Source: a virus (taxonomy: Duplodnaviria; Caudoviricetes). From it: a stretch of DNA of 36,070 nucleotides. Below the pieces are notes generated by a model that had not been told where the DNA came from, ran no database searches, and saw nothing but the letters and a program-made list of their open reading frames with translations. Positions 17,645-31,559 of this stretch are shown here, in pieces. A program made the position numbers and the translations under genes. How positions within the stretch are numbered: the stretch's first letter is position 1; each line of letters begins with the position of its first letter. The stretch lies in IMG/VR virus record IMGVR_UViG_3300033406_000369, positions 1-36,070 of that record; one strand, 5' to 3'.

Positions 17645-17858
17645 AGCCGTAGGCTCCGGACGAAAGGAACACTGATGAGGGGTTCGTTTCGGCGAAGGTG
17701 CGGCTGATCACCCTTTCGGGCTCTGGCGGGCAACGCCTGTCGTTTTACGCCTGCGGTCGGCGGTCGCGGTAACGGCGCGACACCCGGACGGGCAAGGGGC
17801 ACGGACCCAAGGTGCAGTCAATTATCGGCGCGAAGCAGCGCGCCGCCGTGCTAATAAA

Positions 17859-17887
17859 AAATTACAACAAGCCGAGTTGGCGTGCAA
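17859..17887 (-). promoter_or_regulatory. Sigma70-like promoter for the capsid/tail operon
   Basis: Minus strand TTGCAC-N17-TAATTT, about 210 nt upstream of the capsid ATG. Confidence 0.5.
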
Positions 17888-17956
17888 CAGGCGTTTGTTT
17901 TTGCCTTTCTGAAAATCGCATTACGCCCTGTCAACGATCAGAGTAATCAGAATAGA

Positions 17957-17978
17957 ATAGCTACTCTGTAGTAGCTAT
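17957..17978. promoter_or_regulatory. Palindromic operator-like site upstream of the AT-rich accessory gene
   Basis: ATAGCTACT-ctgt-AGTAGCTAT. Confidence 0.45.
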
Positions 17979-18002
17979 ATAGAATCCAAGGAAGGATAGA
18001 AA

Positions 18003-18683
18003 ATGAATACGCTTCAGCTTCCATCCCCGGCCTACAACGCACAGGCGATGACCGAAATATCCGCAGCAATAGTCAGCGATTTTCTAACCTGTATAATTCC
18101 AGGCGCCTCAACAGTAGCAAAGCTTATAGAACTGTATACAAAGAGCAGGCTAGAATCTGCGCAAAAAATACTAATAGAGCGCATCCGTCAAGGTGAAGTA
18201 AATATCGAATTCGATCCAGAATATGAAAATATAATTCCGAATTTTTTCAGTTATTTTCATGCCGCCCAGGAGGGAGAGACAAATAGAGTTCTATGTATAC
18301 TTTCTGATTTACTCATTGGGAACTCAAGCACAACTAACTCAGACTCCGGCTTTATCAAAAGATCATCTCGTCGACTCGCAGGTATGAATCAGGATGATAT
18401 AGCCTTTCTTGCCACGATAGAAAGCGTCTTTGAATGGAAATATCCTGGCAAGGAAAATAACACCTATCAGTTCATAGATGATAGCGACGTCACCAGCCAC
18501 AGATCTAGGACATACGTCGCGCCAGAGCAAAGTATTAATAGCAATCTGTCAGATTTGGCTTCAAGGGGGCTGCTATATCTCGGGGGAGATCCAGAGACTA
18601 TTGGCGGCATAAATTACTACAGATCAACCTATTTCTACGAAGTAATAGATTCCGCTACCAAATTTTCATCTATCAAGATTTAA
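18003..18683 (+). CDS. AT-rich accessory protein (possibly Abi-alpha-like)
   Basis: AAGGAAGGA RBS, much lower GC than the phage core, opposite strand to the late genes; helical N-terminal part and wHTH-like C-terminus (LSDLASRGLL). Family call is weak. Confidence 0.7.
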   Translation: MNTLQLPSPAYNAQAMTEISAAIVSDFLTCIIPGASTVAKLIELYTKSRLESAQKILIERIRQGEVNIEFDPEYENIIPNFFSYFHAAQEGETNRVLCILSDLLIGNSSTTNSDSGFIKRSSRRLAGMNQDDIAFLATIESVFEWKYPGKENNTYQFIDDSDVTSHRSRTYVAPEQSINSNLSDLASRGLLYLGGDPETIGGINYYRSTYFYEVIDSATKFSSIKI

Positions 18684-18688
18684 CTAAT

Positions 18689-18725
18689 ATCTAGACCGGC
18701 ATTTATTTAGAATGCCGGTCTAGAT
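18689..18725. terminator. Hairpin between convergent genes, probable bidirectional terminator
   Basis: Perfect 15-bp stem ATCTAGACCGGCATT / AATGCCGGTCTAGAT with a 7-nt loop. Confidence 0.75.
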
Positions 18726-18734
18726 GACTATTTT

Positions 18735-18962
18735 TCACGATATCATATCTGTACAGTAACGCGATGAACCCATGATAAAAATCACTAATTCGTTGAATTT
18801 CTTAATGTTTATAGATTCACCTTGGCGTGTGACAATATCGGCAAGTTCCCCGATCGCTCTTTGCTGGTCCCCGAGCTCCGCGCTGATGCTTTCGATGATA
18901 TCGAAGATCTCTACGAGATTCCTCGACATGAGCGGGCTGTCGATCTTGATCGCGGCCATCAT
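18735..18962 (-). CDS. Small hypothetical protein coupled to the antirepressor gene
   Basis: ATGA overlap with the Bro-N gene stop and GGAGG RBS; amphipathic helices. Confidence 0.55.
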   Translation of the reverse strand: MMAAIKIDSPLMSRNLVEIFDIIESISAELGDQQRAIGELADIVTRQGESINIKKFNELVIFIMGSSRYCTDMIS

Positions 18963-19897
18963 GCCACCTCCTCGGCTTCCGGCGCGCGGCCGGTGATGAC
19001 TTCGAGCGCTCTGGCGAGTTGGTCAGCAGGGACGACGGTTCCACGGCCGTTGAAGCCGATGGCCCCAATGCGGGCGTGGCCGGCGCTGGCGCCGGGGATA
19101 TCGCGAAGCCGCTGGGCAGCATCCGTCTCGCGGGAGGTGCCGGCGAACGCGCAGGCAATGGCTGGCGCGCCGTTGGCAACGAACAGGGCGCCATCGCGGC
19201 AGGGCCGGCCGGCGATGCGCCAGACGAGCTTCAGGCCAAGCGGTTCGATGAGATCGGAGCGCTTCAACTCGACGGCGCGAGCGACCTGATCGCCGATGAT
19301 CACGCCATCCCCGTCTGGCGCCGACAACAAGTCGACCAGGATGGAGAAGGCTTCATCTTCAAGAAGCGGCGGCACTGACGACAGCGGCACCCGCATGTCA
19401 TGCGCGGCCGGCATGTCGAGTTCCTGCCAGACGCGAGCTGCGAAAGCTCGGCCCATCAGAATGCGGGCCTCGCGAACAGCGGCCGTCTTGGCCGTCAGCT
19501 CGGCGATGTGGTCGCCAGAGGCCCGGCGAGGCTGAAGCTCGTCCGCCTGGGCGTCCTCTTCCCGGCCGGGCACCACATAGGCTCCGGTGCGCCGAAGGGA
19601 GGGAAGCACCTCATGCGCCAGCCAACGCTTAAACCGCTCGGCTTCAGGCTTGCGAGACGTGAAGATGAGGCGGAAGACGCCAGCCTCAGAGACGATGATC
19701 ATCTCCTGTCGGCCTTGAGGGGTGGGTACAGTATACCCACCCCTTTCGTCGTCATCGAGCCTGTCGAGGGCCTGATTGTGGTCCTTGATGCCCAAAACGG
19801 AGCAAACGTCCTTGCCAGTGAACCATGGTTCGCCATCGATCATGACGGATCGAACCATCTGCTCCTCGAAAACGAGAGGGGTAACGGTACCTTCCAT
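18959..19897 (-). CDS. ant: Bro-N domain antirepressor
   Basis: VRSVMIDGEPWFTGKDVCSVLG...TPQGRQEMIIVSEAGVFRLIFTSRKPEAERFKRWLAHEVLPSLRRTGAY; start at 19897 with GAAGGA RBS. Confidence 0.9.
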   Translation of the reverse strand: MEGTVTPLVFEEQMVRSVMIDGEPWFTGKDVCSVLGIKDHNQALDRLDDDERGGYTVPTPQGRQEMIIVSEAGVFRLIFTSRKPEAERFKRWLAHEVLPSLRRTGAYVVPGREEDAQADELQPRRASGDHIAELTAKTAAVREARILMGRAFAARVWQELDMPAAHDMRVPLSSVPPLLEDEAFSILVDLLSAPDGDGVIIGDQVARAVELKRSDLIEPLGLKLVWRIAGRPCRDGALFVANGAPAIACAFAGTSRETDAAQRLRDIPGASAGHARIGAIGFNGRGTVVPADQLARALEVITGRAPEAEEVA

Positions 19898-19927
19898 AAC
19901 AATGGTCCTTCGGTGGGAGCCCGAAGG

Positions 19928-20014
19928 CTCCGGGAGTTGAACCACATCGCCGAAGGTCGACGTGCAACACGCCTTTAGGCCGAAGCCCTGGACATGCGCG
20001 TGCTGCTCCCGGAG
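19928..20014 (-). ncRNA. C4-like antisense RNA (three-stem junction)
   Basis: Outer stem CTCCGGGAG/CTCCCGGAG, two inner UUCG-capped stems, unpaired GTTCAA; lies upstream of ant. Confidence 0.65.
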
Positions 20015-20196
20015 GCATCACAGATGATATCAGGATGCGCCGTTCGCGGAGGCGTTGCCGCCCTCGGTGATGTCATTCGGCCTCGGAGTTCAAGCCTTGG
20101 TCGAACAGCCAAACGGTGCATCGAAAGGAATCGCTTGTCAAGCGGGGCGAGGAAGTTACAACCTGCAACAAAAAGGTGAGTGGTTCGGAGGCTATC

Positions 20197-20523
20197 TTGA
20201 AGCACGCGGTTTTTGTTTTAACAGTTGGAGCCCTTCTTGTCGGCTGCCAAACAGCACAGCGTCCCTCCCCATTAAGTGACCCAACAGTTTCATATTGGGA
20301 ACTTCAATATCAAAAGTGCGTATTACATTATTCGAGAAAGATTTCATCTCAGTCCGGCTCCCCAATTGAGCTTGCATACGTTGTCCGCTCATTATGTCAT
20401 CTAGAAGAATTTGAGCTGGCTAGGGCCGTAGCGCCATTCGATAGTCCAGGAACGATGGAGGGCTACCGACAAGGAGCGTTAGAAGGTGCCGCAGGGATAA
20501 TTGCGAAAGCCAGGATGCGCTAA
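20197..20523 (+). CDS. Accessory lipoprotein
   Basis: TTG start at 20197 with GGAGG RBS gives MKHAVFVLTVGALLVG-C (lipobox LVGC); lower GC. Confidence 0.75.
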   Translation: MKHAVFVLTVGALLVGCQTAQRPSPLSDPTVSYWELQYQKCVLHYSRKISSQSGSPIELAYVVRSLCHLEEFELARAVAPFDSPGTMEGYRQGALEGAAGIIAKARMR

Positions 20524-20554
20524 CACCAGGCGAGTTTCTGCTGGATCGTCGCTG

Positions 20555-20579
20555 GCTTCCGCCCATGGGGGGCGGAAGC
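20555..20579. terminator. Hairpin between the convergent lipoprotein and scaffold genes
   Basis: GCTTCCGCCC-atggg-GGGCGGAAGC; no clear U-tract. Confidence 0.5.
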
Positions 20580-20618
20580 TTCGCGGGCTGACTGTTGGCG
20601 TTTGCCCACAAATGAAAT

Positions 20619-21509
20619 TCATCCCTTCGCGATAACGTCCATGAGCCGCTGCCGCGCCGCCTTCACAGCCTGGTGGTTCGGGTGTGTGGCGTCGCTAAGC
20701 GCCGCGACATGCCCCGCGTCGGCGTTGAGCCTCTGAAGCTCAGCCTTCGCGCCCGCAGCCGTCAGCCCACCGGCGCCGGGCGCCTTCGGATCAACGAGCT
20801 TGTCCTCGCCCATCATGGTTCCAATCTGGTGGAACATCTTGACCAGGCCGGCCGATCCCATGACCTTTTCGAGCGCTGCTGTGTCGTCGATCGGCACGCC
20901 GAGGGCGCGTGCCGCGCGCTGGCTTAGCTCCCGGTTCTTCGCCGCTTCTGCACCCCATTCCTTGTCGAGTGCTGCGCTGAGATCGGCCGTCGCCTTGGCG
21001 CCCTGAATGCCGGCCTGCTCATAGGTTCCCTTGATGTAGCCGAGCACGTCGGACAGGATGGCCTTGGCTTGGCCGGCCGGCACCTTGGCCTTGTGCGCCG
21101 CATCGACGAAGGCCTGCTCGAAGGCGTCGTTGTACTCCGGGAAATCCTTCCGGATATCCTCCGGCGCTGTCACTCCATAGGCCTTGCGGTCCTCGGTCCA
21201 GCCGAGATCCTTCCAGCCATCCCATTCGGTGAGCTTGTCGGCCGCCGGCCGCGACAGCACGTTGCGATCGCGGGCGACATGGTCGGCATGCATGCCCGAT
21301 TTCAGCGCCGTCGAGATGTTGGCGAATTTCTTGTCGGCAATCCACTTTTGGGTGTCCGCGTCCAGTCCCTCAATCGACGAATACCAGGGATCGCCAGCCG
21401 GCGGCGGATTGCCGGCGTTCGCCGGATCGATGGCCGGCGGATCACCGGCGCCGGGATTCGGATTGACCGGCGGGGTGTTGTCGTTCGGAAGGTCGTTCTC
21501 ACCGCTCAT
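20619..21509 (-). CDS. Capsid scaffolding protein
   Basis: Start MSGENDL at 21509; Pro-rich N-terminus, ALDKEWG, IGTMMGED, HPNHQA motifs; follows the portal. Confidence 0.8.
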   Translation of the reverse strand: MSGENDLPNDNTPPVNPNPGAGDPPAIDPANAGNPPPAGDPWYSSIEGLDADTQKWIADKKFANISTALKSGMHADHVARDRNVLSRPAADKLTEWDGWKDLGWTEDRKAYGVTAPEDIRKDFPEYNDAFEQAFVDAAHKAKVPAGQAKAILSDVLGYIKGTYEQAGIQGAKATADLSAALDKEWGAEAAKNRELSQRAARALGVPIDDTAALEKVMGSAGLVKMFHQIGTMMGEDKLVDPKAPGAGGLTAAGAKAELQRLNADAGHVAALSDATHPNHQAVKAARQRLMDVIAKG

Positions 21510-21510
21510 C

Positions 21511-21792
21511 TCATGCGTCCTTTTCGTTCCGCTCCAGCCAGTTCCACAGCGTGGCGGGGCTCTCGTTGGCGATCTTGATGACTTCGAGCGCGAGCTGTCG
21601 GCGTCCCTCCGCGACGGCCGACGAATAGGGGTCGCCCGGCACATGCGACGTGGTCCACACGCCGCCGCGCAAGGCGAGATCGGCCAGGAACAGCTTCTGT
21701 TCGCCAACCGTCATGTATTCCCGCAGAAGCAGGATGCGGTTTTCCCGCTGCCGCCAGACGGACTTCCACCACCGTATGGCGTTCGTGATCAT
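21511..21792 (-). CDS. Small conserved head-region protein (Bbp19-like)
   Basis: Start MITNAI is coupled to the portal stop; LADL...PGDPYSSAVAEGRRQLAL motif. Confidence 0.7.
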   Translation of the reverse strand: MITNAIRWWKSVWRQRENRILLLREYMTVGEQKLFLADLALRGGVWTTSHVPGDPYSSAVAEGRRQLALEVIKIANESPATLWNWLERNEKDA

Positions 21793-23408
21793 GGTTTTCC
21801 TCCTTTGCCGGTGCGCTCGCCGGAGAGTGTGGCCGCCTGGGCGGCGTGCGCCGCCTCGGCCGCGATGGTGACGGCCTGGCCGGTCTGGTCGAGGGCCTGC
21901 TGCTGGGCCATCTGCCCCTGACGCGCCTGGCGTAGTTCGGTGACGGTCTTGGCGTCCCGCAAAGCCTGGGGCGCGGCGCCATAGGCGTCGTGGAGCACGG
22001 CGGCGGAACCGTCGATGTCGACGTTGTCCATGGCGGTCGGGTCGATCTGGGCAAGCTGGCCGATCGCCTGGAGCCATTGCAGCGTCGCCCGGCCGAGCCC
22101 CGCCTTCATCGCCTTGGCGAGCGGCGAGACATACTCGATCGATAGCATTCGCCCCTGAAGCTCGGGCGGTAGCGGATCGATCTGACCGGCGCGGGCAAGG
22201 ATGCGATAGCGCCTGGCAATGAACGGGCTAAGGCCATAGGTCTGGATGCGGACGAGGTTCGGCCCCATCAGGCGCAGCTTTTCCTCCTGAAAGCCGAGGA
22301 ATTCGGTCGCCGTCATCTGCGGACGGTTCACGAGCTGCATCAGCCCGAAATAGAAGGCTTCGCGGATCGAATTGCGCCGCTGTTCGGATTGCTGCATCGA
22401 CAGGCGCACATCGTTGCCACGGCTAAGGTGCTCCATGAGCTTCTTGCCCTGGTCGTTCATCGTTCCGTAGAGCAAGGCATTCGGCGCGATGTCGGCGGCC
22501 GTCAGCACGCTCTCATCGTTGACCAGTACCGGCGGCTCGGCCGCGTATTGCGCGGCAACGATGTGGCTCCGCTCCATCTCCTGAAGCATGGCCGAATCTG
22601 CCTTGGCGAGATGGCCTGGCCCGGTTGGATAGGCGCGGCCAGGTCGCCGGTTCCACTGCGGCACGAAGAACGGAAACTCCTCGAAGCCGCCAACCTTCTG
22701 CCACCCCTTGATGTCGGGCGAGCAGTAGAGGGACAGATAGCGCTTGCCTTCAGGCCCCAGCCGGCGCGGCCGGAAATCCATGTTGCGCGTCACGCCGTGG
22801 ATGATCTGATACGACCGCTTGTCGTCGAGTTCGCCCGGCGCCGCATCACCGAACATCTGACGCACCTGCCGGCCCTTCAGCATGAACTTCCGGTGCATCG
22901 TGTCGGCCATGCCGAAGGCGTCGACATCGAGATAGCACTGACCGATCGGCAGCACGCGGTCGACGATTCTCTGGTTCCCAACGTCTTCCTCGGTGTGCAT
23001 CACCGAGAAGCCGAAGGCGCCAACGTCGCCGAACCAGGCCGGCGCTTCGGCATAGAAGCAGGAGACCGCCGGAGACAGCGACGCGGCGAGAACCGACGTC
23101 GTCGAGGACAGCCAGCGTTTGACCGATCCCCACTTGTCGAGGTCCTGGTCGCCTGTGCTAAGGCCAAACCATGCGTCCATCGGGTTGGTCGCCTGGGTGA
23201 ACATGCCGCCGGCAAAAGCGTCGAGAGCATAAAGCTGGGTGGCGTCGAAAAGGTCGTCGTAGGCTGGCTTGCGTTTGTTGTCGCCCGAGGAAATGCCGAC
23301 CTGGTCGGGTCGCATCAGGCGCGCGATCTCATCCCATTCCGATTCCTCAAGCCGGCGTTCGGCTTCGAGTTCTTCCTGGCGGGAGAGGACGGCGGAATAA
23401 TCGAGCAT
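21789..23408 (-). CDS. Portal / head-tail connector (T7 gp8-like)
   Basis: 539 aa; GFEEFPFFVPQW, MTATEF...EEKLRLMGP, IEYVSPLA motifs. Confidence 0.92.
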   Translation of the reverse strand: MLDYSAVLSRQEELEAERRLEESEWDEIARLMRPDQVGISSGDNKRKPAYDDLFDATQLYALDAFAGGMFTQATNPMDAWFGLSTGDQDLDKWGSVKRWLSSTTSVLAASLSPAVSCFYAEAPAWFGDVGAFGFSVMHTEEDVGNQRIVDRVLPIGQCYLDVDAFGMADTMHRKFMLKGRQVRQMFGDAAPGELDDKRSYQIIHGVTRNMDFRPRRLGPEGKRYLSLYCSPDIKGWQKVGGFEEFPFFVPQWNRRPGRAYPTGPGHLAKADSAMLQEMERSHIVAAQYAAEPPVLVNDESVLTAADIAPNALLYGTMNDQGKKLMEHLSRGNDVRLSMQQSEQRRNSIREAFYFGLMQLVNRPQMTATEFLGFQEEKLRLMGPNLVRIQTYGLSPFIARRYRILARAGQIDPLPPELQGRMLSIEYVSPLAKAMKAGLGRATLQWLQAIGQLAQIDPTAMDNVDIDGSAAVLHDAYGAAPQALRDAKTVTELRQARQGQMAQQQALDQTGQAVTIAAEAAHAAQAATLSGERTGKGGKP

Positions 23409-23414
23409 GTCGCC

Positions 23415-23651
23415 TCACTGACCGAGCAAAGCCTTCGATGCCGGCGTTGCCTGCGCGAAGGTCGAAGGGGAAAAGATCGTCGAGGCGAGGCCGCGCAAGC
23501 CGGCGAGCTTCTGTTGCTGGCGCTCGGAGGCGACGCGCGCTTGCTCGCCATCCTTGCCGGCCTGAAGCGTCGCTTCGAGCTGGGCATTAGCGTCCTGCTG
23601 GGCTTTCAGGGCGTCTTTCATGCCGCTGTCGCCGCCGAGTTTGAGACACAT
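23415..23651 (-). CDS. Small pre-portal protein
   Basis: Starts MCLK and ends KALLGQ, the pattern typical of the small gene before podovirus portals; GGAGG RBS. Confidence 0.7.
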   Translation of the reverse strand: MCLKLGGDSGMKDALKAQQDANAQLEATLQAGKDGEQARVASERQQQKLAGLRGLASTIFSPSTFAQATPASKALLGQ

Positions 23652-23655
23652 CTGG

Positions 23656-24165
23656 TCAACCTCCATCGTGGGGCAGGTCGGCGAACACCGGTTCGGGGTT
23701 GAGCCAGGCGTAGGTCACAAAGGCCTCGCCATGCTTCCCGACCAGTGGATGCCGGCCCTCAAGCTGGAACCCAAGGCGTTCCAGCCACCGACGAGCGACG
23801 GTGTGTCCCTCCCAGCAGCGACACTCTGCGCGATTGACGATTGTCCTCAGCACCCGTCCGATGCCGTCCCTTTTGGCCCACCTGGTCGCCGGAAGCGCGA
23901 TCTCAGGCCAGCGATCCGTCGCCACCATGTAGACGCTGGCGACGCGTGGCGAGGTCAGCCCGCCGCCGATCAGCGCCACTGCGTGCCCTTCCGGCGTGGC
24001 GAGGCAAAGATCGGCGACACGATTCGGCCGGCTGGCAATCATCGCCTCGGCGATCGATGTCGAGCTGCCCTCGAAACGCACGGCGTCGACCTCGACCAGG
24101 TCACGCGCCCGAAGGGCGTGGATGACCTCAAAAATATCGTCGTCATCGGCATAGCGGATGATCAT
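23656..24165 (-). CDS. GNAT-fold protein (T7 gp13-like)
   Basis: LRARDLVE...ARRWLERLGFQLEG motif; ATGA-coupled to terL. Confidence 0.75.
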   Translation of the reverse strand: MIIRYADDDDIFEVIHALRARDLVEVDAVRFEGSSTSIAEAMIASRPNRVADLCLATPEGHAVALIGGGLTSPRVASVYMVATDRWPEIALPATRWAKRDGIGRVLRTIVNRAECRCWEGHTVARRWLERLGFQLEGRHPLVGKHGEAFVTYAWLNPEPVFADLPHDGG

Positions 24166-25670
24166 CCATGCCTCCGGAGCGGGTTGTAGCGGCCGTTTTC
24201 ATTGCGCCCGGCCATGCGGCGGCGCTTCTTCTCGGCCGCGATCTCCGACCGCCTGCGCCTCGCCTCGGCCGAACCGAGCAGGAGGCAGGCGTATTGCAGA
24301 CCGTCGTGAATGTGGCTGTCGAAGCTCTTGCCAACCGACGACACGTCGTCGGAACCGGCGAGCTTGCGATACTGATAGGTCTGGTTGAAGCCGCGCCTGA
24401 GGCCCTTGCAGGAGGGATCGAGCAGGAAGCCTGGCCGACCGTTGTCGAGCGTGCGGGTGAGCGGATCACGCACCGCTTCCCAGCGCGCGTCCGGCTCGTT
24501 GGTGCTGGCGGCGACAACCGGAATACCCAACGCCGCTTGAAGGCGCGACCGGGCCGAACCGTCCTCGGTGTCATCGCCGGCACACATGGCCGGATCGCAG
24601 CGGATGACGAACTCGCAGCCGGGGAAGCGGCGCTCCATCAGCGACAGCATCTGCCGGGCGAGCGAGGTTTCCGAGGCGTGGGTGCAAGCGATCTCGGCGA
24701 GCACGGCCACCTGGCCGTCGGGACGTTCCTGGAGAAACACCGCGGCCGGCGTCAGACCGCCGTCAATGCCGACGATGATCGGCAGTTCGCGGAAGTGCTC
24801 CAGCGTCGCCGGTGCCATGTGCAGTTCGTCGTTGAACTCGGGGTAGACGACGGAGATTCCCCGCGTGAAGCCCGGCAGGCTCATGATGAACTTGCGGATC
24901 CACCAGGGCCGATGCGCGTTGAGCTTGGCCTGCTGGAGCCAGTAGCCGGCGCCCATGGCCGCGATGTTCTCGGCGTTGGGCGCGAAGCCGGACGGTTGCT
25001 TGTAGAGGTGATAGCCGGGCTTCAGATCCTCGAAGAAGTCCCGATAGACCCAATCCGTGACGCTGGGCGCGTTCATGTCGCCGAAGATACGACCGCCACG
25101 GCCGATCAGCTCGCGTGCCGGGTCGCGACCGACACGGCCGACCAGCATCGTGAACAGGTCCTCTGGCAACGTGTCCATCTCGTTCAGCCAGACGTCGGTG
25201 TATTCGAGGCCCTTGAGGTCGTCGGGGTTCGCTTCGTCGCCGAAGGCACGGAAGCGGGCAACCAGCTCGATCGGCCCCCAGCGGTCCTCGAAGCGGATGA
25301 CGTGCTGGGCGGCGCGCGGCTTGGCACCCGACCAACTGCCGAGGCTCTGCGGCAGCAACTTCCACCAGCTCGGAATCGTCGCGTCCCAGAGGTTGTCGTA
25401 TTTCTGGCGCCAGATACCGAGCACGTAGCGGCGCATCGCCCTGCCCTGCTCGTCTCTTGTCGTCGGCCGGATGCGCGTCGCCTCGACGATCGCCTTCTTG
25501 ACGCTGCCAGTGGTCTTGGCCGACCCCATGGGGCCGACAATGCCGATCACGTCTTCCGTCGCCATGATGTAGGCGTCCGACACCGGGCCGGCGGACGAGA
25601 AGATGTCCGGCATCTGGGCCTTGAGCACGTCACCCAGCGACCCGAAAGCGGTCTGGTCGATGGCGGTCAT
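24162..25670 (-). CDS. terL: Terminase large subunit
   Basis: Walker A GPMGSAKT, Walker B VWLNE, coupling motif DMN, nuclease GIDGG and SHIHDGLQY; ATG at 25670 with GAGG RBS. Confidence 0.92.
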   Translation of the reverse strand: MTAIDQTAFGSLGDVLKAQMPDIFSSAGPVSDAYIMATEDVIGIVGPMGSAKTTGSVKKAIVEATRIRPTTRDEQGRAMRRYVLGIWRQKYDNLWDATIPSWWKLLPQSLGSWSGAKPRAAQHVIRFEDRWGPIELVARFRAFGDEANPDDLKGLEYTDVWLNEMDTLPEDLFTMLVGRVGRDPARELIGRGGRIFGDMNAPSVTDWVYRDFFEDLKPGYHLYKQPSGFAPNAENIAAMGAGYWLQQAKLNAHRPWWIRKFIMSLPGFTRGISVVYPEFNDELHMAPATLEHFRELPIIVGIDGGLTPAAVFLQERPDGQVAVLAEIACTHASETSLARQMLSLMERRFPGCEFVIRCDPAMCAGDDTEDGSARSRLQAALGIPVVAASTNEPDARWEAVRDPLTRTLDNGRPGFLLDPSCKGLRRGFNQTYQYRKLAGSDDVSSVGKSFDSHIHDGLQYACLLLGSAEARRRRSEIAAEKKRRRMAGRNENGRYNPLRRHG

Positions 25671-25936
25671 ACCGCGCCTCCCCAAACCCCGGCGCCCCGG
25701 CACCCCGAACCCGACGCAGGATCAAACCCGGTTCGCGATCTGGATCGGCGGTTGGCGGGAGCCCGGACAATCCTTGCCGAGGGGTAGCAGGATTTTTTCA
25801 AATCTATTCTTGGGGGGTGGGGGTGGCAGGGCACCGGGGGGGTGGGTTCAGCCATTCCGAGCGGCGCGGCGCCAGCCTGGCGCGTCGCCTGCCCCACTGT
25901 CTCATTAGGGTATGCCAAGGCGGCAACCTGTCTCAT
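25667..25936 (-). other. Bridge ORF between terS and terL over a G-tract region
   Basis: ATGA overlaps at both ends; the product is low-complexity and not protein-like. Confidence 0.4.
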
Positions 25937-26568
25937 TTGCCGTCCTCCGACCCATTTGAGACGGGTTTCGCCGTCTCGTCATCCTGTTCCGCTGGCGTAT
26001 ACCCAATTGAGACGGCACCCGAGCCCGGCTCGCGAGCCGAACTGGTTACGCCGAGTTCGTCGCCGTCGAGGTATTCCCACGGTGGCCGATCAGGTGAGAC
26101 GCCAAGCGAGGCACCGCCACCGAACACCATGTTGATGGTCGGAACGGCGTTGCCAGCCTCGTCGGTGGCCGCGAGGTTTGGAATGACGATGCCCTGCAAG
26201 CTGTCGGCGATCGCCTTCTGACGGTCGAAGGCCTCGACCCTCTTGCATCCCAGATACTCGGCGAGCTGCTCGACGGTCATGGTGAGCCAGGAGATTTTCC
26301 AGATGACCGGGTTCTTGCCGTGCGACAGCACATACTCGCGAAGCTGCCGCGTATTGATGTTCTTGGCGCCCTTCGGTCGGCCGGCCTGGCGCTCCCGTAC
26401 CTCGGCCTCGGCGACGATCTGATTGCGCTTCGCCTCATCGGCGATCGGCGGCGCGAAGAAGCCGAGCTGCTCGCCCTCGGCGGCAGCCTTCTCGGCGTCG
26501 ACCTCGTCGGCCAGTCGCCGCGCAATCTCCTTCTGGAGACCCCTCTTGCCGCTGTTCTGGTCAGCCAT
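25933..26568 (-). CDS. Putative terminase small subunit
   Basis: GRPKGAKN motif, GGAGG RBS, position upstream of terL. Confidence 0.65.
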   Translation of the reverse strand: MADQNSGKRGLQKEIARRLADEVDAEKAAAEGEQLGFFAPPIADEAKRNQIVAEAEVRERQAGRPKGAKNINTRQLREYVLSHGKNPVIWKISWLTMTVEQLAEYLGCKRVEAFDRQKAIADSLQGIVIPNLAATDEAGNAVPTINMVFGGGASLGVSPDRPPWEYLDGDELGVTSSAREPGSGAVSIGYTPAEQDDETAKPVSNGSEDGK

Positions 26569-26619
26569 TGAGGCCTCCAGACAGGCAATAGCTTGATATT
26601 TCTGGATATTTTATTGTTC

Positions 26620-26925
26620 TGCAACGGCTGCAACGGTCGAGAAATCGACGATGTTGCAAATCAGAAATGCTAAGTATCTGATTTATATATCTCTTTATAG
26701 TTTTAGCAACAGTGCAACAGCTGCAACGCCCTACGCGCGCGTATAGCATCCTTGAAAGCCATGAACGCGAACACGCGAAGGAGGTTTCCATATGCGCGCG
26801 CGACCCCGTTGCAGGCGTTGCAGCGTTGCGGCTTTCCATTTTCCCCTTTCGCATCAGCATCTTAAAAATCGACCATCTGATTTTTAGTGTTGCAAAAAGT
26901 GTTGCAAGTCGCCGAAAGCGTTGCG
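26620..26925. repeat. Iteron cluster, putative replication origin
   Basis: Twelve (T)GCAAC/GTTGC(A) copies in both orientations, at 26620, 26629, 26653, 26705, 26713, 26722, 26808, 26817, 26825, 26889, 26901 and 26920, around an AT-rich tract, just downstream of the helicase gene. Confidence 0.75.
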
Positions 26926-27124
26926 AGACCTTGAATTCATCAACGATATGAATGGCTTGCCCGCACCCGCCCGCCGCAGCGTCCACCTTCGCGTTCATTC
27001 CTGCCTGATCAGCACCTTGCGATGCAGAACTGGGCGCGCGTCCTCTGTGTTCGTCTGCTGGGTTCAGGGGCGGAGCAGAAAGCCCGGAACTCCGCCATTC
27101 TCGTCTTTGCGTCATGGCTGTCGC

Positions 27125-29242
27125 CTACCGATCGAGCTGGAGGAAGGTTCGCGCCGACACCGACCAGCCACGACCGCCGAGCGATCGCGAGTTGACCGGC
27201 GCCGCGCCTAGTCGCTTCATGGCCTGCGCCCAGCCGCCGATCGTGCCCGGCATGCCGTACCAGGTGGTGCCGTCGAAGATCCGTCTCAGGCCCTCATTCT
27301 GGTTCGGCAGGGCAACCATGGTCGGCGGCTCGTTGGCGCTATGCCACTTCTGAGGCTGCGCGTTGTCCGCTCGGCCGGAGACATAGACGCCATGAGCCCT
27401 CAAGGCGTCTCGCGCCTGGGCTGGAGTGCATGGCGCCTCGCGCTCGTCCCAGCGGCCACCAACGGCGGCAAGCACAAGCTCCTCGATCGTCATCCTGGTT
27501 CCGCCTCGGAACACGTCCAGCGGCACGGACAGGATGTGATTGAGCATGGCCTGGGCGTTGCTCACCTCGGAAGGCCCTTCGCCGCCCCTTGCTGTGTGCA
27601 GAGCGTCGGCGAGCATCGAGCGCATATCAGAGGGGCAAATCTCATCCCCTCGCATAAGATCGAGAAGGGCAAGCACCGTTCCATAGACATCCTGGCCGCG
27701 CGCTGTATGTCCCCCTGTCGCCAGCGCCTGGCGATAGACGACCAGCGTTTCGGGCCATCGGGACCATTGGCCGATGATCCGCGCCTTGATCATGGCGCCC
27801 CACAATCGGAGCTGCTTGACGTCCATCACTAGCGCCGGCCGCTCGCCGAGCTTCTGAAGCTCCAGCACCACGAAGCGGTTCACGTCCTGGCCGAGCAGCG
27901 GCGGGATGATGATCGAGCCGAACAGGAAGACGGACTGCGCCAGAAACGCCGTCGCGGTGTGGTCTGATGATCCTCGGAGCACGAGGCCGCCCTTGGCGGC
28001 GACGCGGGCGAGCTTCACCAGCTTCTGCACCCTGTCGGATGTTGGGTCCGGCTCGCTCTCGTCGAGCAGAATCGGCCGCGTCGAGAAACCGAGCTCAGAC
28101 CAGATGCCGGCGGCGGTCGGGTCGGTTGAGGTCACAAGGGTTTCGGGGCCGTAAAGGTGTTCAAGCAGTTCGAGCAACGTCGACTTGCCGTCGCCGCTGT
28201 CGCCCGTGATCCAGCCATGCGGGCGCCACTTCAGCGCCCCGCCCATCAAGCCGGCCGCCCAAAGGCCAAGTGCCAGCATGGAGCCGAGCCGGTGGCCGCT
28301 GCCGTCGTGGTCGATCAGTGTTCCGGTCTCGTCCGCCTCGTTCGCCCAATTCCAGCTATCGAGCATGTTCAGCACCGGCTCGGTGCACTCCTTGGCGGGA
28401 ACAAAGGCGTCAGCCGGCCGGACGACCGGTTGCTGAGCCGAATAGACCTTGTCGCCATAGAGTCCCGGCTTCTGCCAAGCGCCATTGATCCACACAGCGT
28501 CGCCGACATGCAGCACCAGGCCGCCATCGTCGTCGAGCCAGGCGCCAAGGCCACGCACACGGCGCGTCTCGACAAACTTGCCGCGCGCAGCGGCAGCGGT
28601 CATCAGGCTTTCGCTCGCCTGGTCAACCTTCCAGCCTGTTTGCTGGCGCGTCGTCTCGTTGAACTTTGGGAAGGTCTGCCAGAAAAAGTCGATGCGATCC
28701 TCGGCCAAGGCGCGAAGGCCGTTGGCGTTGTGCTCGGCCGCCTTCAGCGACAGGATCTCGCCGGACGGCTTCAGATAGTAGTAGACCGCGCCAAGCTGGC
28801 CGACCGGCACAATGGGGCAGCCTTCAGGAAGCGGCTTGATCGGGTCTTTCCGGCGCTTCCAGCCATCGTCCTCGGATGCGTCATCCGCTGGCGGCGGCGA
28901 AGGCGGCAGATCGGGCTCGCCTTCCTCGGTCTTGCCGCGCCGCTTTGATTTGCCCTTGGTCTTGGGAAACAGAATGTCGGTCATCTCGTCGTGCGAGATG
29001 CCCTCGGCCTTGCCTATCTTCCGCGCGAAGTCCTCGCCCTTGTTACGGGCGAGGTTGCGGTAATACTCGTCGCGAACCCGCTTGTCCTTGCTGTCCGGCT
29101 CGCCTCGATCAGCCTTCGGCGGCTCGGCCGGCGCTGCCTGGTCGCCCTCTGCCGGCGCCGCCTGGTCGGCTCCCTCGGCGCTCGCCAGGAAGTCAGCGGA
29201 GGAAAAGGCGTCGCGAATGCCCGGAAGCGGCGGCGTGGTCAT
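27125..29242 (-). CDS. Replicative P-loop helicase (P4 alpha/SF3-like)
   Basis: Walker A GDSGDGKS, Walker B ILLDE, QDVNRF arginine finger; ATG at 29242 with AGGAG RBS. Confidence 0.85.
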   Translation of the reverse strand: MTTPPLPGIRDAFSSADFLASAEGADQAAPAEGDQAAPAEPPKADRGEPDSKDKRVRDEYYRNLARNKGEDFARKIGKAEGISHDEMTDILFPKTKGKSKRRGKTEEGEPDLPPSPPPADDASEDDGWKRRKDPIKPLPEGCPIVPVGQLGAVYYYLKPSGEILSLKAAEHNANGLRALAEDRIDFFWQTFPKFNETTRQQTGWKVDQASESLMTAAAARGKFVETRRVRGLGAWLDDDGGLVLHVGDAVWINGAWQKPGLYGDKVYSAQQPVVRPADAFVPAKECTEPVLNMLDSWNWANEADETGTLIDHDGSGHRLGSMLALGLWAAGLMGGALKWRPHGWITGDSGDGKSTLLELLEHLYGPETLVTSTDPTAAGIWSELGFSTRPILLDESEPDPTSDRVQKLVKLARVAAKGGLVLRGSSDHTATAFLAQSVFLFGSIIIPPLLGQDVNRFVVLELQKLGERPALVMDVKQLRLWGAMIKARIIGQWSRWPETLVVYRQALATGGHTARGQDVYGTVLALLDLMRGDEICPSDMRSMLADALHTARGGEGPSEVSNAQAMLNHILSVPLDVFRGGTRMTIEELVLAAVGGRWDEREAPCTPAQARDALRAHGVYVSGRADNAQPQKWHSANEPPTMVALPNQNEGLRRIFDGTTWYGMPGTIGGWAQAMKRLGAAPVNSRSLGGRGWSVSARTFLQLDR

Positions 29243-29264
29243 GCTGCGGCGCTCCTGCATTTAT

Positions 29265-29308
29265 TGTTACTACAGGAATGTTGCAGCAACCTGTTTTTTG
29301 TAGTAACA
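29265..29308. promoter_or_regulatory. Putative operator of the second brnTA
   Basis: TGTTACTACA-N24-TGTAGTAACA ending 8 nt before the brnT ATG; internal GTTGC-A-GCAAC palindrome. Confidence 0.7.
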
Positions 29309-29316
29309 GAAATTCC

Positions 29317-29586
29317 ATGCCGATCGAATTCGACCCGACCAAACGCGCCACCAATTTGGAAAAGCACCACATCGACCTCACAGAGGCCGAGCGTGTGTTC
29401 GAGGGTGACACGCTGACGGCCGAAGACGATCGCTTCGACTATGGAGAGCAGCGGTTCATCACCATCGGCCGACTTGATGGGCGCATGGTGGTGATGGTTT
29501 GGACCCCGCGCGGCGCGGCCCGCCGCATCATCTCTTTGAGGAAAGCCAATGACCGCGAACAGGCCACCTATGCCCCCCGGCTTTGA
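29317..29586 (+). CDS. brnT: BrnT-family toxin (second copy)
   Basis: MPIEFDPTKRATNLEKHHIDL...EDDRFDYGEQRF...VWTPRGAARRIISLRKAN; true start at 29317. Confidence 0.92.
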   Translation: MPIEFDPTKRATNLEKHHIDLTEAERVFEGDTLTAEDDRFDYGEQRFITIGRLDGRMVVMVWTPRGAARRIISLRKANDREQATYAPRL

Positions 29587-29803
29587 TCCCGACGAAGCGC
29601 CCGACCTCAGCACGCCGGAATGGCAGGAGAAGTTTGCCGCCGCCAAGGTGCAGCGCGGCCGACCGAAAGCCGATAGCCGGAAGGTGTCGACCACCATCCG
29701 CCTCGATGCCGACGTGATCGCGGAATTCCGCGCTGGCGGCGACGGCTGGCAGTCACGCATCAACACGGCACTGAAGGAATGGCTGGAGCGCAAGCGGGCG
29801 TGA
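29549..29803 (+). CDS. brnA: BrnA-family antitoxin (second copy)
   Basis: DPDEAPDL...RGRPK...KVSTTIRLDADVI...GDGWQSRINTALKEW. Confidence 0.92.
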   Translation: MTANRPPMPPGFDPDEAPDLSTPEWQEKFAAAKVQRGRPKADSRKVSTTIRLDADVIAEFRAGGDGWQSRINTALKEWLERKRA

Positions 29804-29807
29804 GGCG

Positions 29808-30944
29808 TCATGCCACATCCCCTTTCATCGCCTCTTGGGCGGCGGCGCATTCGGCGCGGTATTCCGCTTCGGCGTAAGCTGTGAAGTCTTTGAAGGTGCC
29901 AGGCGCCCAAACATCGCGAAGCGCAATGCCGCGCCGGTCGAGCTTTTCAGCGGCCTGCTCATAGGCAGCGACGGCCTCGGGCGGGTCGCCCCTGTGGCGA
30001 TGCCAGTAGATGCCGCCGATCTGTGGGGGCAGCACGATGTTGCCCAGATTGGAAAGGCTGATGGCTGCGAAGGTGCGCATTTCCGGCAGGGCGATCGCCA
30101 TGGCAACGCCGTCTTCAATGCCCTCGCTGCCGGCGATCCATTCCCCTTCCGGCGCGTCCTTGATCGGCTTGCCGCTGTCGCCGCGCCAAATGGGAATGAT
30201 GCCGCCCCGATATTCGGAATAGGCCTGCTTGGGCTTGCGAAGGTCTGTCGCCTTGCGCATGCCGCCGGCACCGTCCGGTTCAAGAAACGTCCGGTGAATG
30301 GTCAGGTGCCCAAAGCCGAAGCGGATGACCTGGCCGACCATCCCCGGCCGCTTCCGGCCCGTCGTCTGGTATGTCTCGGGGCAAGCGAGCGACGGATGAT
30401 AACGCAGCGCATTGAGCGCGCCCTTCCCGTCTAGCCTCGTCTTGAGTTGCCAGACCGGCAACCCGCGACCGATCAGATACCGCTCGGCCGGAGATCCAAA
30501 CAGCGGTTCGGCTTCGAGATAGCGGCGCTTCGAGGCGCGCAATAGATCGGCGGTTCGTTTGGCCGTTTCGGCCTGGCGCTTCTGCGTGGCCTGTCGTGCC
30601 TGCCGTTCGGCGTCCTGGCGCTGCTCGCGGTTCATGTGGGCGATGCCGAGCCAATCAATGGCCCACTTGATCGCCTCGCCGATGTCACCGCCGCACTCTG
30701 TCTTGGGCGCCCTGGCGATCAGCGTCAGGAGGTCGCCGCCCTCCCCTGACCGGAAGTCCTTGACCCACCCAGCCTTGTTGCCGCGATAGCAGATGCGGAG
30801 TGCCTGCCCCTCGCCGCCTTCCCAGCCATCGACAAGGTAGTTCGTCCCCTCGACGGAAGCCTCGGGAAAGAGATGCAGCACCAGGCTTTCGACGCGATCG
30901 AGCAGCCGTTCCTTGAGCGCGTCGATGGAAATGACGTAGCTCAT
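29808..30944 (-). CDS. Toprim-domain primase
   Basis: N-terminal DFRSGEGGDLL, AERYLIGRG, IHRTFL, toprim EGIEDG. Confidence 0.85.
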   Translation of the reverse strand: MSYVISIDALKERLLDRVESLVLHLFPEASVEGTNYLVDGWEGGEGQALRICYRGNKAGWVKDFRSGEGGDLLTLIARAPKTECGGDIGEAIKWAIDWLGIAHMNREQRQDAERQARQATQKRQAETAKRTADLLRASKRRYLEAEPLFGSPAERYLIGRGLPVWQLKTRLDGKGALNALRYHPSLACPETYQTTGRKRPGMVGQVIRFGFGHLTIHRTFLEPDGAGGMRKATDLRKPKQAYSEYRGGIIPIWRGDSGKPIKDAPEGEWIAGSEGIEDGVAMAIALPEMRTFAAISLSNLGNIVLPPQIGGIYWHRHRGDPPEAVAAYEQAAEKLDRRGIALRDVWAPGTFKDFTAYAEAEYRAECAAAQEAMKGDVA

Positions 30945-31228
30945 GCCGCCTCCGGCTCATCGGCGATGGCATCGCGGATCGCACGATAGGCTGAAAGCCA
31001 GGCGGCACGGGCTTCCGGCGTCCTGGCGTTGGCATGCAACACGGCAGTGTCGACGAGAACGACAAGATGGTGAGCTGACGCGCCAACGGCGAGCCGCCGA
31101 AGCCGCGCGAGCTGGTCGAAGGCCTGGAACCAAATCCGATTGTCGGCGCTCCCCGCCGGGGTGCGAAAGCCCATCACCTCGTCGGTGGTGTGCTCGGTGA
31201 TCGCGAGGATCTCGGCCAGCAGCGTCAC
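30941..31228 (-). CDS. Hypothetical early protein
   Basis: GTG start 1 nt after the cro stop with GGGGG RBS; ends EAA with ATGA coupling to the primase. Confidence 0.6.
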   Translation of the reverse strand: MTLLAEILAITEHTTDEVMGFRTPAGSADNRIWFQAFDQLARLRRLAVGASAHHLVVLVDTAVLHANARTPEARAAWLSAYRAIRDAIADEPEAA

Positions 31229-31229
31229 G

Positions 31230-31559
31230 TCATCCCCCTTGATGCCCGGCCGCACGGACGGCGCGGCCGGGCTGCGCTGGGGAGGGAACTCCGGCGGGAT
31301 GGTTCGCCGGCCAATCGCGGGCGCGCTCACCCCCGCGAAAGCTCGTGACGGGCGCCAAGGGGCGCGCCGCTTGTTGTTCCAGACGATCAAGGGCTTCGAG
31401 CAGCCGCTTCCATTTCGGCCAGGAGGGAATGCATTCTTCGTGCATCCACCGGCTCATGGTTGACTGCGCAACGCCTGCTTTCTGCGCAATTCGGCTAGGT
31501 GTGAGGCCTAAAGCCTTGCTGCGCGCGAGAACCGCTACCATGTCAAACGGGTTATCCAT
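31230..31559 (-). CDS. Cro-like HTH regulator
   Basis: LTPSRIAQKAGVAQSTMSRW helix-turn-helix; divergent from the repressor. Confidence 0.8.
   Translation of the reverse strand: MDNPFDMVAVLARSKALGLTPSRIAQKAGVAQSTMSRWMHEECIPSWPKWKRLLEALDRLEQQAARPLAPVTSFRGGERARDWPANHPAGVPSPAQPGRAVRAAGHQGG

What the first reader, a model, noticed from the sequence alone, without database searches (positions are those of the whole stretch)
20619..31559. An 11-kb operon kept continuously translatable by bridge ORFs laid over non-coding elements
Seen: from cro to scaffold, every minus-strand junction overlaps or has a gap of at most 9 nt, provided three non-protein-like ORFs are counted. These are 29239-29811 over the antisense brnTA cassette, 26561-27115 over the AT-rich iteron origin, and 25667-25936 over the G-tract region. 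Two have ATGA overlaps at both ends. The third starts 9 nt after the helicase stop and overlaps the terS start by 8 nt. I recognise no N- or Q-type antiterminator gene. Inference: the frames are kept open to maintain ribosome coverage and translational coupling and so avoid Rho polarity, not for their peptides. Caveat: spurious ORFs are common at high GC.
Basis: partly seen in the sequence, partly recalled or inferred. Interest (0 to 1): 0.7.

Follow-up and report, generated by a model that had tools for sequence, protein, structure and literature searches.

The report
Filler reading frames bridge phage operon
Many members of a widespread, unstudied prophage family keep stop-free filler reading frames, with no conserved protein, across their likely replication origin, likely packaging site and backward-facing gene cassettes, which likely keeps ribosomes on one long message so the host's Rho factor would not cut it short.

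Summary
Observation confirmed: all 13 minus-strand junctions from cro to scaffold lie between -8 and +9 nt. The origin bridge (26561-27115) is open in 5 of 5 close prophages with dN/dS 0.86. A sense frame crosses the origin in 29 of 45 family clusters, against 2 antisense and 2.6-3.6 expected, although the iterons differ and shared DNA motifs are read in all three frames. The terS-terL bridge is open only at chance level, but its end-coupling is enriched (48 of 63, nulls 12-24). Both have ribosome-binding sites as strong as terS. The brnTA bridge is a 569-nt insertion with a 7-nt duplication, absent from 4 of 4 close relatives and weak evidence alone; seven other relatives bridge other antisense cassettes in that interval. 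Cro's tail is a fourth bridge. Limits: only 32 of 64 clusters keep an unbroken primase-terL chain, a distant hold-out set mostly lacks origin bridges, and neither translation nor Rho involvement was tested. Rho avoidance is my best mechanism (0.55); reinitiation, mRNA stability and roadblock passage remain open.

The parts
31230..31559 (-). cro-like HTH gene; codons 1-62 protein-like, codons 63-109 (about 31230-31373) a non-protein tail over predicted RNA hairpins (fourth bridge)
   Evidence: PF13560; pN/pS 0.29 head vs 0.94 tail, tail pS 0.22 vs 0.59; hairpins with compensatory changes in L014, z -3.07
30941..31228 (-). orfX, 95 aa, unknown function
   Evidence: 48-62% identical in 4 relatives; no convincing family
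29808..30944 (-). Toprim-type primase
   Evidence: PF13362, PF23639, phrog_510
29239..29811 (-). Bridge B1, 190 codons, antisense to the brnTA cassette, ATGA at both ends
   Evidence: absent from 4 of 4 close relatives; open in a second carrier, run X13
29317..29586 (+). brnT toxin gene (type II toxin-antitoxin), in register with B1
   Evidence: PF04365, register
29549..29803 (+). brnA antitoxin gene, out of register with B1
   Evidence: PF14384
29256..29317 (.). Inverted repeat upstream of brnT, likely its operator
   Evidence: I5; role inferred
29238..29244 (-). Helicase-side copy of the 7-nt duplication flanking the 569-nt insertion (other copy 29807-29813)
   Evidence: an empty-site contig skips 569 nt with 7 letters fitting both sides
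27125..29242 (-). P-loop NTPase, likely the replicative helicase
   Evidence: phrog_21086, phrog_35358; Walker A/B in alignment A1; dN/dS 0.08
26561..27115 (-). Bridge B2, 184 codons, over the likely origin
   Evidence: open and equal length in 5 of 5; dN/dS 0.86; family tests
26586..26915 (.). Likely origin: head-to-head TGCAAC iterons round an alternating purine-pyrimidine tract (26734-26800), AT-rich stretch, IHF-like sites at 26671-26683 and 26586-26598
   Evidence: IHF consensus recalled; function inferred
25933..26568 (-). Conserved gene in the small-terminase position ('terS', positional label)
   Evidence: family-wide HMM; dN/dS 0.33; no Pfam, PHROG or PDB match
25667..25936 (-). Bridge B3, 89 codons, over a C-rich tract and a G-rich arm; likely packaging-signal region
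   Evidence: open 5 of 5, only indel +3; dN/dS 1.01; coupling tests; fixed-codon DNA motifs in relatives
24162..25670 (-). Terminase large subunit
   Evidence: PF04466 (below cut-off), phrog_10250
23656..24165 (-). phrog_308 gene (annotated internal virion protein)
23415..23651 (-). 78-aa conserved gene
   Evidence: 86-90% identical in relatives
21789..23408 (-). Portal (head-tail connector)
   Evidence: PF12236
21511..21792 (-). Bbp19-like gene
   Evidence: PF25181
20619..21509 (-). Likely scaffold or protease; last gene of the tight chain
   Evidence: phrog_3742, phrog_458; insertion hot spot follows

Best explanation
This prophage family keeps stop-free, end-coupled frames with no conserved peptide across its likely origin, likely packaging site and antisense cassettes, and these frames are likely translated so that ribosomes would shield one long transcript from Rho and pass on to the next gene. 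Steps: (1) one transcript runs from the cro promoter through replication genes into packaging and head genes (inferred from gene order and tight junctions). (2) It must cross DNA whose sequence is set by another job: iterons, IHF-like sites, C-rich tracts, antisense genes (shown). (3) Untranslated, these 260-1500 nt stretches would offer Rho a loading site (inferred; C>G bias shown for the two spacers). (4) Selection purges stops from one frame, keeps a ribosome-binding site and start at the upstream stop, and places the stop on the next start (shown comparatively). (5) Which frame is used does not matter and differs between lineages (shown). (6) A cassette inserted between primase and helicase likely survives mainly when such a frame spans it (inferred from 8 loci).
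For: B2 open in 5 of 5 at 65-79% DNA identity, while the other five frames hold 12-20 stop positions; modelled drift leaves it open about 3% of the time per lineage. dN/dS 0.86 (B2) and 1.01 (B3) vs 0.08-0.33 for neighbours, with flat codon-position variation. Sense frame open over the origin in 29 of 45 clusters vs antisense 2, shuffle 2.6, random phase 3.6. Single coupled bridge in 28 of 45 (nulls 1.4, 0.7) and 48 of 63 (nulls 23.5, 12.5); non-gene-like bridges in 8 of 341 host spacers. 28 different top iteron 6-mers in 42 spanned loci. A shared G-rich motif is read in phases 9/9/10. Strong ribosome-binding sites before 66% of B2 and 71% of B3 starts vs 72% for terS and 21% background. Antisense cassettes between primase and helicase are spanned by one 190-516-codon ORF in 7 of 8 loci, with all 10 internal spacers multiples of 3. 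C>G bias above coding controls in 39 of 45 and 56 of 63 spacers. Host has rho. Ribosome shielding of C>G Rut sites: PMC12360218, passages read.
Against: No expression or ribosome data. Unbroken primase-terL chain in only 32 of 64 clusters; only 6 of 29 loci with large helicase-terS inserts are chained. Hold-out: 1 of 3 direct origins spanned, 0 of 7 with terS at 0.9-1.2 kb. No compensating antiterminator was found in unspanned lineages. Spanning is partly predicted by whether the iteron holds a stop triplet (27 of 40 without, 11 of 30 with; p 0.015). B3 openness is at chance level and its C-tract can pair with the G-rich arm, which might hide it from Rho. B1 had about 0.14 prior chance of being open, and is open over the coding body in 4 of 4 non-prophage copies. 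Clusters are related, so p-values overstate; five bridged cassettes share one HTH gene.
Confidence: 0.55

Rival explanations
1. The bridges are translated only to deliver ribosomes to the next start (reinitiation, or melting RNA that hides its ribosome-binding site). Transcription is not at risk.
For: Stops sit exactly on the next start: terS-terL spacing is 2 mod 3 in 40 of 63 clusters and both ends are NTGA in 28 of 63. This precision is more than Rho shielding needs. The B3 C-tract is predicted to pair with the G-rich arm next to the terL site. Precedent: Gifsy-1 orf45-anrP (PMC4825925, results part 1 and one discussion section read).
Against: terS and terL have strong sites of their own (-9.3 and -11.4 kcal/mol in the window). 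B3 folding is not stronger than shuffles (z -0.3). A short ORF just before the start would be enough, yet frames of 140-619 codons are kept open.
Confidence: 0.2
2. Ribosomes on the bridge protect the AU-rich origin RNA from endonucleases, or push RNA polymerase through protein-bound iterons and IHF sites.
For: The bridges cover about 12 iteron copies and IHF-like sites (about 4 per kb before terS vs 0-0.04 in helicase and terL). Ribosome help against backtracking and RNase E preference for AU-rich RNA are recalled, not read.
Against: It does not explain bridges over GC-rich antisense genes, nor the C>G bias at spacer 5' ends.
Confidence: 0.12
3. A cis-acting RNA antiterminator in the cro tail, or orfX, protects the transcript; the bridges are a secondary back-up.
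For: The cro tail is constrained at nucleotide level and folds into hairpins at the position of lambda nutR or HK022 put (position recalled). orfX has no known family.
Against: A model of the tail found no match below E 0.03 in 75 more distant loci; no Rfam match. The bridges are far more widespread than the tail.
Confidence: 0.06
4. The bridges encode functional small basic or disordered proteins (overprinted genes).
For: They have ribosome-binding sites. Some B2 and B3 peptides match between clusters (33 and 32 pairs at E<1e-3) and share LIENQ-like and PLxVTP-like words. dN/dS is 0.52-0.57 in three divergent comparisons.
Against: dN/dS near 1 in the best-aligned set; shared motifs fall in all three frames; the shared words use fixed codons (AAT in 23 of 24 vs AAT:AAC 245:823 in terL); no family or fold.
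Confidence: 0.04
5. Chance: long ORFs are common at 65% GC, especially antisense in register with real genes.
For: The window has shadow ORFs of 539, 598 and 705 codons. B3 openness equals its antisense control. B1's frame pre-exists.
Against: B2 lies in 51% GC DNA with about 12 stop triplets per strand; the antisense control gives 2 of 45 vs 29 of 45. Coupling and ribosome-binding sites exceed their nulls.
Confidence: 0.03

Closest known systems
Ribosome shielding of Rut sites by leader ORFs (tnaC, mgtL, corL, cruR; PMC12360218, passages read)
   Same: Translation of an ORF decides whether Rho can load on the nascent RNA upstream of real genes.
   Different: Those are short conditional sensors, some acting through their peptide. 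These are 89-619-codon internal fillers with no conserved peptide or frame, laid over DNA elements and antisense genes.
Phage antitermination: lambda N/nut, Q/qut, HK022 put, P4 Psu, RfaH/ops (PMC12360218, passages read)
   Same: Likely solves the same problem: carrying transcription through a long phage operon despite Rho.
   Different: No such protein or RNA was found here; the proposed solution is in the layout of reading frames.
Coupling ORF orf45 upstream of anrP in prophage Gifsy-1 (PMC4825925, abstract, first part of results and one discussion section read)
   Same: A prophage ORF whose translation is needed for the next gene; a stop in it lowers downstream translation.
   Different: 45 codons, sRNA-controlled, one locus, not over an origin; no family-wide frame turnover described in what I read.
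Lambda ori inside gene O (recalled, not read)
   Same: A phage origin lies inside a translated frame of the early operon.
   Different: O is an essential conserved protein; here the frame over the likely origin has dN/dS near 1 and changes phase between lineages.
Translated antisense overlapping genes in Pseudomonas and E. coli (PMC8850804, PMC9927249; search listing and abstract start only)
   Same: Long ORFs antisense to real genes.
   Different: The Pseudomonas ones are titled as under purifying selection; B1 differences are mostly synonymous in brnTA, and the bridges are defined by coupling at both ends.

Membership tests
Protein-coding gene (B2, B3) | Purifying selection on amino acids | tested here: not met
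   dN/dS 0.86 and 1.01 vs 0.08-0.33; flat codon positions
Protein-coding gene (B2, B3) | Same reading frame over homologous DNA | tested here: not met
   shared motifs in phases 9/9/10 and 7/8/4
Protein-coding gene (B2, B3) | Start codon with ribosome-binding site and open frame | tested here: met
Protein-coding gene (B2, B3) | Translated in vivo | not testable with these tools
   only assembled contigs were available
Rho-shielding leader ORF | C>G-biased Rut-like RNA under the ORF | tested here: met
   39 of 45 and 56 of 63 spacers above coding controls; a proxy only
Rho-shielding leader ORF | Rho-dependent termination when untranslated | not testable with these tools
   needs bicyclomycin or Term-seq; host rho present
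Rho-shielding leader ORF | Short 5' ORF with conserved sensing codons | tested here: not met
   internal, long, no conserved peptide
Translational-coupling ORF | Stop overlaps or abuts the next start | tested here: met
Translational-coupling ORF | Downstream translation depends on it | not testable with these tools
   needs reporter fusions
N/Q/NusG-type antitermination | Antiterminator gene in the prophage | tested here: inconclusive
   no hit among the window ORFs scanned or for PF02357 (the host's own nusG is also missing from this 89.85% complete assembly); N-type proteins can escape profiles (recalled)
put-type RNA antiterminator | Structured RNA after the early promoter | tested here: inconclusive
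   cro-tail hairpins; no Rfam hit; not found beyond the five close prophages
Iteron origin | Repeats beside the helicase gene, AT-rich stretch, IHF-like sites | tested here: met
Iteron origin | Supports replication | not testable with these tools
   needs a minireplicon assay
BrnT-BrnA type II toxin-antitoxin | Adjacent PF04365 and PF14384 genes | tested here: met
   both above cut-off
Terminase small subunit | Profile or structure match | tested here: inconclusive
   no Pfam hit in 34 of 34 members, no PDB match below E 0.05; position and conservation only; no fold was predicted

The most novel reading that the evidence does not exclude
These phages replace a dedicated antiterminator with genome layout. 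Peptide-less bridge ORFs, rebuilt in any frame as iterons turn over, keep the early-to-late transcript ribosome-covered across the origin, the packaging signal and antisense anti-defence or toxin-antitoxin cassettes, and this need filters which cassettes can enter the operon and forces their genes into one register. Many 'hypothetical proteins' beside phage origins would then be such fillers.
Probability: 0.4. Interest if true: 0.87.

Novelty: new variant of a known kind. Interest (0 to 1): 0.74.

Why it matters
It is a clean comparative case of reading frames conserved for being translated, not for their product: open, with a ribosome-binding site, coupled at both ends, dN/dS near 1, in any phase. 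It offers a testable answer to how temperate phages with no recognisable N or Q carry transcription across their own origin. It predicts a rule for moron insertion (length a multiple of three, antisense genes in one register). It warns that some phage 'hypothetical proteins' are fillers, and it supplies ready-open frames from which new genes could arise.

Tried and rejected
B3 openness as evidence: equal to antisense and shuffle controls, and drift leaves it open 33-45% of the time; only coupling counts. B1 as an adaptation of its coding body: the frame is open there in 4 of 4 same-genus copies that have no primase or helicase nearby, and over the full length in 4 of 14 distant viral brnTA copies. 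Absence of TTA/CTA/TCA codons in bridged genes is circular and was not counted. ML omega could not be parsed from IQ-TREE, so pairwise Nei-Gojobori values are used. Indel-length test in divergent pairs: alignments at 56-69% identity were unreliable and showed many gaps not divisible by 3. Promoter and terminator scan: at or below chance. A compensating regulator in unspanned lineages: none identified. Cro-tail RNA beyond close relatives: not found. Cultured members: none among 50,697 phage records; the two best hits are unannotated. Expression: run X13 is an RNA library but only contigs are held, so it shows presence only. Metagenome scan returned one 100%-identical contig. Ten literature searches found no description of such bridges; the library lacks most subscription and older phage papers, and no supplements were read. 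Four look-ups of earlier findings gave no same-family report.
Full report
What the window is. It holds most of a temperate prophage with short-tailed-phage-like head genes: integrase, SSB and repressor on the plus strand; cro, primase, helicase, terminase, portal, capsid, tail, internal virion and lysis genes on the minus strand. The host assembly is 5.3 Mb, 89.85% complete, and has rho. No cultured, annotated member was found among 50,697 phage records.

Observation. All 13 junctions from cro to scaffold fall between -8 and +9 nt once B1 (29239-29811), B2 (26561-27115) and B3 (25667-25936) are counted. None of the three has a family match. 'terS' is a positional label. 'Origin' is inferred from head-to-head iterons, an alternating purine-pyrimidine centre, an AT-rich stretch and IHF-like sites (IHF consensus recalled). 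On the mRNA strand the 'G-tract' is a C-tract followed by a G-rich arm.

Close relatives. Four distinct prophages with helicases about 90% identical were recovered (L009, L010, L014, L015). B2 is 552 nt and open in 5 of 5, with the same start and the same 8-nt overlap. B3 is open in 5 of 5 with ATGA at both ends; its only indel is 3 nt. Amino-acid identity is 50-62% against 86-92% for helicase and terL. dN/dS is 0.86 and 1.01 against 0.08, 0.33 and 0.09 for helicase, terS and terL, and variation is flat over codon positions. In the B2 alignment the other five frames hold 12-20 stop positions each. A drift model with invariant columns frozen leaves B2 open about 3% of the time per lineage; a more conservative column-mixing model gives 29%. 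B3 stays open 33-45% of the time, so its openness is uninformative.

Whole family. A helicase alignment fetched about 100 loci, reduced to 92 non-redundant loci in 80 clusters at 70% identity. In the 45 clusters where terS follows the helicase within 250-720 nt, a sense frame is open across the spacer in 29, an antisense frame in 2; shuffles predict 2.6 and random phasing of the observed stop triplets 3.6. One ORF coupled at both ends spans it in 28 of 45 (nulls 1.4 and 0.7). For terS-terL, openness is at chance (49 of 63 sense, 48 antisense), but spacing is 2 mod 3 in 40 of 63, both ends are NTGA in 28 of 63, and a coupled bridge exists in 48 of 63 (nulls 23.5 and 12.5). In the host genome, a rough gene call gives non-gene-like bridges in 8 of 341 co-directional spacers, 29 of 341 if gene-like ones are included. 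Predicted ribosome-binding sites before B2 and B3 starts match terS (66%, 71%, 72% at or below -5 kcal/mol; background 21%). Clusters are related; spanned loci form 18 maximal clades with 16 state changes among 82 tips, so p-values overstate but the pattern is not one event.

Not for the peptide. The 42 spanned loci carry 28 different top iteron 6-mers. A G-rich motif shared by the spacers is read in phases 9/9/10 and the central tract in 7/8/4, while an IHF-like motif that contains TGA avoids the one phase that would stop (20/3/0). Peptide words shared between B3 of some clusters use fixed, otherwise rare codons (AAT in 23 of 24), the mark of a DNA site. Against this, three divergent comparisons give dN/dS 0.52-0.57, where protein-guided alignment likely biases the value down.

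B1 and antisense cassettes. The brnTA cassette is absent from 4 of 4 close relatives, where primase overlaps helicase directly. An empty-site contig skips 569 nt with 7 letters fitting both sides, so the two ATGA overlaps come from a junction duplication. Same-genus copies at 85-90% identity, with no primase or helicase nearby, already have the frame open over brnT-brnA in 4 of 4; two stop at the promoter end. A synonymous null gives 0.14. A second carrier (run X13) has 41 differences and no indel; none of the 40 listed makes a stop. B1 alone is thus weak. The kind recurs, however. Seven other loci have antisense cassettes between primase and helicase, encoding ArdC, LPD29, HTH and unknown proteins. 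Six are spanned by one ORF of 248-516 codons and L110 by two chained ORFs. All genes lie in the bridge's register and all 10 internal spacers are multiples of 3. Unbridged multi-gene cassettes downstream of the helicase have mixed registers in 5 of 6. Caveats: genes were picked by a codon score, small genes may have been missed, and five bridged cassettes share one HTH gene. Single frames of 410, 619 and 371 codons cross insert and origin together in L028, L096 and L134.

A fourth bridge. Cro codons 63-109 have pN/pS 0.94 and reduced synonymous change, and fold into hairpins with compensatory changes. The element was not found in 75 more distant loci.

Evidence against generality. 16 of 45 direct-origin clusters are unspanned. 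Only 6 of 29 loci with inserts over 720 nt are chained (my notebook says 7, the recount is 6). A chain runs from primase to helicase end in 55 of 64 clusters but to terL end in only 32. A hold-out of 21 new, distant genome loci plus 2 GenBank records gave 1 of 3 direct origins spanned (its antisense also open), 0 of 7 with terS at 0.9-1.2 kb, and L134 spanned; the other 12 could not be scored. Iterons holding a stop triplet are spanned less often (11 of 30 vs 27 of 40). No compensating regulator was found in unspanned lineages.

Mechanism. Shown: selection for open, initiation-competent, end-coupled frames without peptide or frame conservation in much of the family. Inferred: that they are translated, that one transcript runs through, and that Rho is the threat. 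Support for Rho is indirect: both spacers begin with C>G-biased RNA (39 of 45, 56 of 63), the recognised feature of Rut sites, and ribosomes are known to block them (PMC12360218, passages); no N, Q or NusG-like gene was found. Exact NTGA overlaps point to reinitiation as well, and the two need not exclude each other. I give Rho shielding with hand-on 0.55, coupling only 0.2, stability or roadblock 0.12, cro-tail or orfX antitermination 0.06, functional peptide 0.04, chance 0.03.

Comparison and novelty. It works like leader-ORF shielding of Rut sites and like coupling ORFs (PMC12360218, passages; PMC4825925, abstract, first part of results and one discussion section), but fails membership in the first (not short, not 5', no sensing codons) and is untested for function in the second. 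Lambda's ori within gene O is recalled. Ten searches found no description of peptide-less bridges over origins or antisense cassettes; the library lacks most older and subscription papers. Verdict: real, selected, new variant of a known kind; interest 0.74.

Noticed in passing
window 31230-31373 (-): Cro's C-terminal 47 codons behave as non-coding structured RNA read through by the ribosome, at the position where lambda has nutR/tR1 (recalled); a candidate regulatory RNA.
   Followed up: partly
helicase-terS spacers, e.g. L017, L018, L062, L105; window 26586-26915: A conserved origin-like layout: lineage-specific 7-9-nt iterons head to head round an alternating purine-pyrimidine tract, with IHF-like sites; at least 28 iteron types, so initiator specificity likely turns over fast.
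   Followed up: partly
5' part of the origin spacer (window about 26960-27075) and terS-terL spacer (25687-25839): Both spacers carry a C-rich arm and a complementary G-rich arm about 100 nt apart; DNA site or RNA hairpin unknown.
   Followed up: no
terS-terL spacer of L045, L050, L060, L061, L070, L095, L105, L113 and others: Two fixed-codon DNA motifs, one palindrome-like and AT-rich, one C-rich; candidates for terminase binding and cut sites. The AT-rich motif also occurs in the 3' end of terS.
   Followed up: partly
L061:6308-7687, L070, L095, L096, L035, L056, L068, L083: Antisense cassettes with ArdC or LPD29 plus a small HTH gene sit beside the helicase or origin; Tad2-like and Acb2/Tad1-like anti-defence genes occur in L068 and L083.
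   Followed up: partly
window 17644-20619: Scaffold-capsid interval is an insertion hot spot: 3 kb here (Bro-N antirepressor and a 42% GC plus-strand gene of no known family) vs 261 nt in L009, about 2 kb in L014 and L015; the plus-strand gene is not bridged. A conserved 200-nt leader precedes the capsid gene.
   Followed up: partly
window 18688-18726: Perfect 17-bp inverted repeat between two convergent genes, likely a two-way terminator.
   Followed up: no
L020, L048, L072, L042: Permuted gene order: terS or terS-terL upstream of the replication genes; in L042 and L072 the helicase overlaps terL directly.
   Followed up: partly
window 6675-9869 (-): 1064-aa virion-region protein with a ddrB-like ParB domain (PF18763).
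   Followed up: no
L116-L119: The prophage brnTA cassette is 85-90% identical to copies in four same-genus genomes with no primase or helicase nearby; likely captured from a host locus.
   Followed up: yes
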